Positions 17,257 to 17,330 of a stretch of DNA of 64,000 nt are shown piece by piece. Location: assembly GCA_009914755.4 (NCBI GenBank), contig CP086569.2, forward strand, positions 14,336,001-14,400,000, given 5' to 3'. The notes beneath the pieces were generated by a model. That model did no database searches. It was not told the DNA's origin and was given only the letters and a program-made list of their open reading frames with translations. Made by a program: the position numbers and the translations under genes. Origin of the DNA: the human T2T-CHM13v2.0 reference genome, Homo sapiens. How positions within the stretch are numbered: the first letter of the stretch is position 1; every line of letters starts with the position of its first letter.

Positions 17257-17330
<74 letters not shown>
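17257..17330. repeat. Compound tetranucleotide STR (AGAT)12(AGAC)6 [= (TCTG)6(TCTA)12 on the minus strand]
   Basis: direct reading, perfect repeats. Confidence 0.95.

What the first reader, a model, noticed from the sequence alone, without database searches (positions are those of the whole stretch)
17257..17330. Perfect compound tetranucleotide STR (AGAT)12(AGAC)6, a candidate polymorphic Y-STR in a UTY intron
Eighteen uninterrupted tetranucleotide units, (TCTG)6(TCTA)12 on the other strand, have the motif composition of forensic Y-STRs such as DYS390 and DYS437. Long perfect GATA-type arrays mutate at ~1e-3 per generation. If the window is Y-linked, as the UTY call implies, this is a haplotype marker candidate. 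I cannot tell whether it is a named DYS locus.
Basis: partly seen in the sequence, partly recalled or inferred. Interest (0 to 1): 0.5.

Follow-up and report, generated by a model that had tools for sequence, protein, structure and literature searches.

The report
Known forensic Y-chromosome marker DYS712
The repeat is real and lies in an intron of the human Y-linked gene UTY, but it is the already named and widely used marker DYS712, one of the fastest-mutating single-copy Y-chromosome repeats, so the finding is correct but not new.

Summary
Window 17257-17304 is a perfect (AGAT)12, 17305-17328 a perfect (AGAC)6, followed by AG. It is the only perfect tetranucleotide run of six or more units in the 64 kb.

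The window carries the first four coding exons of a gene on the minus strand. Their spliced translation is 100% identical to human UTY. The repeat lies 2,376 bp downstream of exon 4, in intron 4.

The repeat is a named locus, DYS712. Its published structure is (AGAT)m(AGAC)n with allele = m+n. The published GRCh38 start is chrY:13,446,552. A second published Y-STR, TRF9363 (AC)n at chrY:13,436,968, matches the window's (AC)19.5 at 7673. The spacing is 9,584 bp in both.

The window allele is 18. DYS712 is an established rapidly mutating Y-STR, with published rates of 2.2-5.2 x 10^-2 per generation. In one panel it was the most discriminating of 202 Y-STRs.

The mechanism is inferred to be ordinary replication slippage in a long uninterrupted array. 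The array abuts an old Alu left monomer.

Verdict: already known, low interest.

The parts
17257..17304 (+). (AGAT)12, the long and variable block of DYS712. It reads (ATCT)12 on the UTY-sense minus strand.
   Evidence: CSYseq types this block as AGAT[n] starting at GRCh38 chrY:13,446,552, with a range of 11-22 and a mean of 15.
17305..17330 (+). (AGAC)6 followed by AG, the second block of DYS712. It is counted in the allele number (m+n = 18).
   Evidence: The published structure is (AGAT)m(AGAC)n with formula m+n.
17158..17256 (+). Old Alu left monomer (FLAM-like) that directly abuts the 5' end of the array. The array sits where the monomer's A-rich tail would be.
   Evidence: Weak Rfam Metazoa_SRP match at 17158-17260, 15.2 bits, E = 0.14, below the gathering score.
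19706..19755 (-). UTY coding exon 4 (50 nt, AG/GT flanked), the nearest exon. The repeat lies 2,376 bp downstream of it in intron 4.
40810..40918 (-). UTY coding exon 3 (109 nt).
49943..50006 (-). UTY coding exon 2 (64 nt).
50203..50354 (-). Coding part of UTY exon 1 (ATG at 50354-50352), in a region of raised G+C (0.52-0.54).
7673..7711 (+). (AC)19.5, the Y-STR TRF9363 of the CSYseq panel. It serves here as a second positional anchor.
   Evidence: CSYseq table S3 gives TRF9363 as NC_000024.10:g.13436968AC[n]. Its spacing to the AGAT start is 9,584 bp in both the window and GRCh38.

Best explanation
The array is the human Y-chromosomal microsatellite DYS712, structure (AGAT)m(AGAC)n, here allele 18 (12+6). 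It lies in intron 4 of UTY at GRCh38 chrY:13,446,552-13,446,625. It is a neutral, non-coding, single-copy tandem repeat. Its length most likely changes by replication slippage: the nascent and template strands misalign by whole 4-base units within the long uninterrupted AGAT block, which gives mostly one-step gains and losses. Because the male-specific Y does not recombine, each length change passes down the paternal line. The rate is about 2-5% per generation, which is why the locus is used to tell close male relatives apart. Shown here: the sequence, the host gene, the identity with DYS712 and the published rates. Inferred: the slippage mechanism, the dependence of rate on length, and an origin from the tail of the adjoining Alu monomer.
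For: Structure: a perfect (AGAT)12(AGAC)6 matches the published DYS712 structure (AGAT)m(AGAC)n with allele = m+n.

Position: CSYseq table S3 lists DYS712 at NC_000024.10:g.13446552AGAT[n] and TRF9363 at g.13436968AC[n]. The window has the AGAT start at 17257 and an (AC)19.5 start at 7673. The spacing is 9,584 bp in both, with the right motif at each end.

Host gene: four AG/GT-bounded exons on the minus strand splice to 125 aa that are 100% identical over 100% of the query to human UTY (P0001; also P0030 and P0034, named UTY).

Further anchor: primers for the haplogroup-R SNP M207, recalled from memory, match exactly at 40714-40736 and 41115-41136, giving the remembered 423-bp product. M207 is at hg19 chrY:15,581,983, inside UTY as I recall the gene's coordinates.

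Allele range: 12 AGAT units falls within the published 11-22.

Polymorphism and rate: 2.19e-2, 2.72e-2 and 5.21e-2, 3.03e-2 with gene diversity 0.918, and 4.63e-2. Changes are mostly single-step, with gains roughly equal to losses, as slippage predicts.

Specificity: the locus is reported as male- and human-specific.
Against: No published DYS712 primer or flank sequence could be obtained. The tables were images, or the papers are not held. Identity therefore rests on motif structure plus exact coordinates, not on an in-silico PCR.

No human reference genome was available to align the flanks directly.

The slippage mechanism is general knowledge about microsatellites and was not tested here. 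Neither strand of the array forms any stable hairpin (0 kcal/mol), so no special DNA structure explains the high rate.

The M207 primer sequences come from my memory, although their exact double match validates them.
Confidence: 0.95

Rival explanations
1. It is a different, unnamed Y-STR that merely lies near DYS712 and shares its motif.
For: No primer-level confirmation was possible.
Against: It is the only tetranucleotide array of six or more units in 64 kb. Its start matches the published coordinate to the base when anchored on TRF9363. The two-block structure is the published one.
Confidence: 0.02
2. The window is not the human Y. It could be the X homologue KDM6A, an autosomal copy, or the UTY of another primate, in which case the repeat would not be a human Y haplotype marker.
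For: No reference genome could be searched. Over 125 aa plus four primer sites, a chimpanzee orthologue could by chance show no difference.
Against: The spliced exons are 100% identical to human UTY, while my recalled KDM6A matches at only 75-92% per exon. Splice sites are intact, so this is not a processed copy. Two STRs lie at exactly the GRCh38 chrY spacing. The M207 and M202/M203 primer pairs match exactly.
Confidence: 0.02
3. Besides being a marker, the array acts in cis on UTY. On the transcribed strand it is a 74-nt (GUCU)6(AUCU)12 tract rich in UCU, which could bind polypyrimidine-tract-binding proteins. Allele length would then modulate UTY's alternative splicing.
For: It lies in the sense-transcribed intron 2.4 kb from exon 4. 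The database holds many short human UTY transcript variants (P0001, P0030, P0031).
Against: There is no evidence of any kind for function. It is far from the splice sites. Alleles of 11-22 AGAT units and totals of 20-31 segregate in healthy men at very high diversity, which is the signature of neutrality. The array forms no structure.
Confidence: 0.03

Closest known systems
DYS712 (Zhang et al. 2012; rapidly mutating Y-STR of Ralf et al. 2020; in the RMplex, 26 RM Yplex and CSYseq panels)
   Same: The two-block structure (AGAT)m(AGAC)n and the GRCh38 coordinate are the same. It is single-copy on the Y, and the allele lies within the published range.
   Different: Nothing differs. This is one allele (18 = 12+6) of that locus, at the short end of the range. 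The location in UTY intron 4 and the adjoining Alu monomer were not mentioned in the papers read here.
DYS390, DYS389I/II and DYS437, the core forensic Y-STRs with TCTG/TCTA compound motifs
   Same: The motif family is the same (TCTA/TCTG, equivalent to AGAT/AGAC, with adjacent blocks differing by one transition). They share the presumed slippage mechanism and the use in Y haplotyping.
   Different: They are different loci elsewhere on the Y. In the same father-son sets DYS390 and DYS437 showed no mutations (<2.7e-3), against 4.6e-2 for DYS712. The DYS389 and DYS390 structures have more blocks (from my own knowledge).
Alu-tail-derived primate microsatellites (Arcot et al. 1995; cited from my own knowledge)
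   Same: The array begins exactly where an Alu left monomer ends.
   Different: No A-rich remnant is left and no clear target-site duplication is visible. AGAT/AGAC is not the usual A-rich tail derivative. The origin therefore remains an inference.

Membership tests
DYS712 locus | Repeat structure (AGAT)m(AGAC)n with allele = m+n | tested here: met
   The window has (AGAT)12(AGAC)6. The published structure is in PMC9804972 Table 1.
DYS712 locus | Position GRCh38 chrY (NC_000024.10) g.13446552 | tested here: met
   The spacing to TRF9363 (g.13436968, AC[n]) is 9,584 bp in GRCh38 and between window positions 7673 and 17257. The window also holds the human UTY 5' exons.
DYS712 locus | Bracketed by the published PCR primers | not testable with these tools
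   Primer tables were images or the papers are not held.
DYS712 locus | Allele within the observed population range | tested here: met
   AGAT = 12, against a range of 11-22. The total of 18 compares with Chinese totals of, for example, 20 and 31.
DYS712 locus | Single-copy and male-specific | tested here: inconclusive
   The flanks are unique within the window. Male and human specificity is reported in the literature. Copy number across the genome cannot be tested here.
Rapidly mutating Y-STR (at least 1e-2 mutations per generation) | Father-son mutation rate of at least 1e-2 | not testable with these tools
   Literature only: 2.19e-2, 2.72e-2 and 5.21e-2, 3.03e-2, 4.63e-2.
UTY gene (host) | Exons translate to UTY rather than KDM6A, with intact splice sites | tested here: met
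   100% identity and 100% coverage to human UTY variants. All four exons have AG/GT boundaries. Identity to recalled KDM6A is 75-92% per exon.
Alu-tail-derived microsatellite | The array starts at the 3' end of an Alu or FLAM element | tested here: met
   The Alu left-monomer alignment ends at 17259, i.e. 3 bases into the array. The weak SRP hit spans 17158-17260.
Alu-tail-derived microsatellite | Residual A-rich tail and flanking target-site duplication | tested here: inconclusive
   No poly-A is left. By eye only, there is an imperfect 8/11 match between the sequence upstream of the monomer (AATAACAAGAG) and sequence about 25 nt after the array (AATTATAAGTG).

The most novel reading that the evidence does not exclude
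The length-polymorphic UCU-rich tract, (GUCU)6(AUCU)n in the UTY pre-mRNA, is not neutral. It would bind polypyrimidine-tract-binding proteins, so that DYS712 allele length tunes UTY isoform usage and creates heritable, fast-evolving expression differences between paternal lineages.
Probability: 0.03. Interest if true: 0.45.

Novelty: already known. Interest (0 to 1): 0.08.

Why it matters
As a discovery it does not matter, because the locus is catalogued, named and in routine forensic and genealogical use. The check does give the first-stage scan a clean positive control. The check also fixes the window at GRCh38 chrY:13,429,296-13,493,295, which helps in judging other findings from the same window.

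Tried and rejected
1. A literature search for 'Y-STR' + 'UTY' + 'intron' found nothing. A motif-based search returned only papers on the core kits. The UHD multiplex paper had no matching locus.

2. Kayser 2004, Ralf 2020 and RMplex 2021 are not held. The Willems preprint has no supplements held as text. The primer tables of three DYS712 papers are images or absent. No in-silico PCR was therefore possible.

3. Scans of the metagenome and prokaryote-genome collections for the right junction, run in the hope of finding other alleles in contaminating human DNA, found nothing.

4. I briefly thought the window differed from GRCh38 by 16 bp (four repeat units) between the array and M207. That came from my own liftover arithmetic using an offset of 2,111,880. 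The CSYseq table shows the hg19-to-hg38 offset drifting from 2,111,911/2,111,901 to 2,111,880 across this region. An offset of 2,111,896 places M207 exactly at amplicon position 79 (window 40792). I rejected it as evidence of anything.

5. Primers recalled for M208 and M210-M216 are not in the window. Either my memory is wrong or they lie elsewhere in UTY.

6. A hairpin or slipped-structure explanation for the high mutation rate fails, because both strands fold at 0 kcal/mol.

Full report
**Observation.** Window 17257-17304 is a perfect (AGAT)12. It is followed directly by a perfect (AGAC)6 at 17305-17328 and a partial unit AG at 17329-17330. Tandem Repeats Finder reports one period-4 array at 17257-17327, with 17.8 copies, 98% matches and score 107. 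It is the only perfect run of six or more units of a true tetranucleotide in the 64 kb. Both 40-base flanks are unique in the window.

**Host gene.** It located four short matches on the minus strand. Reading the splice junctions gave four exons, each bounded by AG and GT: 50354-50203 (starting at the ATG), 50006-49943, 40918-40810 and 19755-19706. They splice into an open 125-codon frame.

- That peptide is 100% identical over its full length to a human UTY variant (UniRef E1NZ82, P0001).
- It is also 100% identical over the shared part to entries named 'UTY protein, Homo sapiens' (P0030, P0034).
- KDM6A-like or UTY-like proteins of other species reach at most 86%.

No further UTY exon lies between window position 1 and 19705. 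The repeat is therefore in intron 4, 2,376 bp downstream of exon 4, and is transcribed as part of the UTY pre-mRNA.

**Identity of the repeat.**
- The supplementary table S3 of the CSYseq paper (PMC8423258) lists 'DYS712 NC_000024.10:g.13446552AGAT[n]'. I had estimated about 13.447 Mb from UTY's position, which I recalled from memory.
- The same table lists 'TRF9363 g.13436968AC[n]'. The window has an (AC)19.5 array starting at 7673.
- The distance from the AC start to the AGAT start is 9,584 bp in both the window and GRCh38. The motifs agree at both ends. Window position w therefore corresponds to GRCh38 chrY 13,429,295 + w.
- Independently, PMC9804972 (Table 1) gives the DYS712 structure as (AGAT)m(AGAC)n with allele number m+n, after Zhang et al. 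2012. That is exactly the two-block structure seen here, so the window carries allele 18.
- The 12 AGAT units fall inside the 11-22 range, with mean 15, seen in men of the Low Countries.
- Primers for the haplogroup-R SNP M207, which I recalled from memory, match exactly at 40714-40736 (+) and 41115-41136 (-). They give the remembered 423-bp product. M207 is at hg19 chrY:15,581,983.
- Recalled M202/M203 primers also match, around UTY exon 1.

I could not obtain any published DYS712 primer sequence. The identification therefore rests on structure plus base-exact coordinates, not on an in-silico PCR.

**What is known about DYS712.** It is one of the 12 rapidly mutating Y-STRs added by Ralf et al. 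2020 (as cited). It belongs to the RMplex, 26 RM Yplex and CSYseq panels.

| Source | Mutation rate per generation |
|---|---|
| CSYseq; also the most discriminating of its 202 Y-STRs (capacity 0.85) | 2.19e-2 |
| German and Polish pairs | 2.72e-2 |
| Shanxi Han, gene diversity 0.918 | 3.03e-2 |
| Han (the abstract gives 4.67e-2) | 4.63e-2 |
| Chinese pairs | 5.21e-2 |

In one study it was singled out as exceeding the other single-copy loci. Mutations are mainly one-step, with gains roughly equal to losses. The locus is reported as male- and human-specific.

**Mechanism.** The mechanism is inferred from established knowledge of microsatellites: replication slippage by whole units within the long uninterrupted AGAT block.
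- The rate would rise with the number of uninterrupted units. This fits the higher rates in Chinese samples, whose total alleles run to 20-31. It also fits the positive correlation between rate and repeat number reported by CSYseq.
- Neither strand of the array forms any secondary structure (0 kcal/mol, z about 0.4). No hairpin-based explanation is needed or supported.
- With only 12 AGAT units, the allele in the window would sit at the slow end of the range.

**Surroundings and origin.** The 99 bases before the array (17158-17256) are an old Alu left monomer. Rfam gives a weak, sub-threshold Metazoa_SRP match at 17158-17260. The array thus occupies the place of the monomer's A-rich tail. This suggests, but does not prove, a birth from a retroposon tail. 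No poly-A remnant and no clear target-site duplication remain. By eye, LINE-1 3'-end fragments flank the region on both sides.

**Leads that went nowhere.**
- Scans of the metagenome and prokaryote-genome collections for the right junction found nothing.
- An apparent 16-bp discrepancy with M207's GRCh38 position was an artefact of my own liftover arithmetic. The hg19-to-hg38 offset drifts across this region.

**Verdict.** The repeat is the well-known marker DYS712, so it is already known and of low interest. The only open speculation is that the UCU-rich intronic tract affects UTY splicing. It has no support here and I give it about 3%.

Noticed in passing
window 7673-7711: A perfect (AC)19.5 dinucleotide repeat. 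It matches the Y-STR 'TRF9363' of the CSYseq panel (NC_000024.10:g.13436968AC[n]) to the base once the window is anchored on DYS712.
   Followed up: yes
window 15952-15987: A perfect (AT)18 repeat about 1.3 kb upstream of DYS712. It would lie near GRCh38 chrY:13,445,247. No CSYseq marker has a coordinate beginning 1344 other than DYS712, so it may be an unnamed and probably polymorphic Y-STR.
   Followed up: partly
window 40714-41136: Primers recalled from memory for the haplogroup-R SNP M207 match exactly and give a 423-bp product that overlaps UTY exon 3. Remembered amplicon position 79 is window 40792, where the base is A. A would be the ancestral, non-R state, which suggests this stretch comes from a non-R Y chromosome. 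The inference rests on memory.
   Followed up: partly
window 50099-50478: Primers recalled for the M202/M203 amplicon match around UTY exon 1. Intron 1 is only 196 bp (50007-50202). The interval 50000-50999 has raised G+C (0.52-0.54) and CpG observed/expected of 0.64-0.81, consistent with the UTY promoter CpG island.
   Followed up: partly
window 14896-15107, 30667-30772, 55188-55344: Three two-copy tandem duplications with periods of 108, 53 and 77 bp, at 90-98% identity. They probably lie inside interspersed repeats. They were not examined.
   Followed up: no
window 16900-17045 and 17660 onward: By eye, sequences typical of LINE-1 3' ends flank the Alu monomer and STR. The intron here is a patchwork of retroposons.
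   Followed up: no
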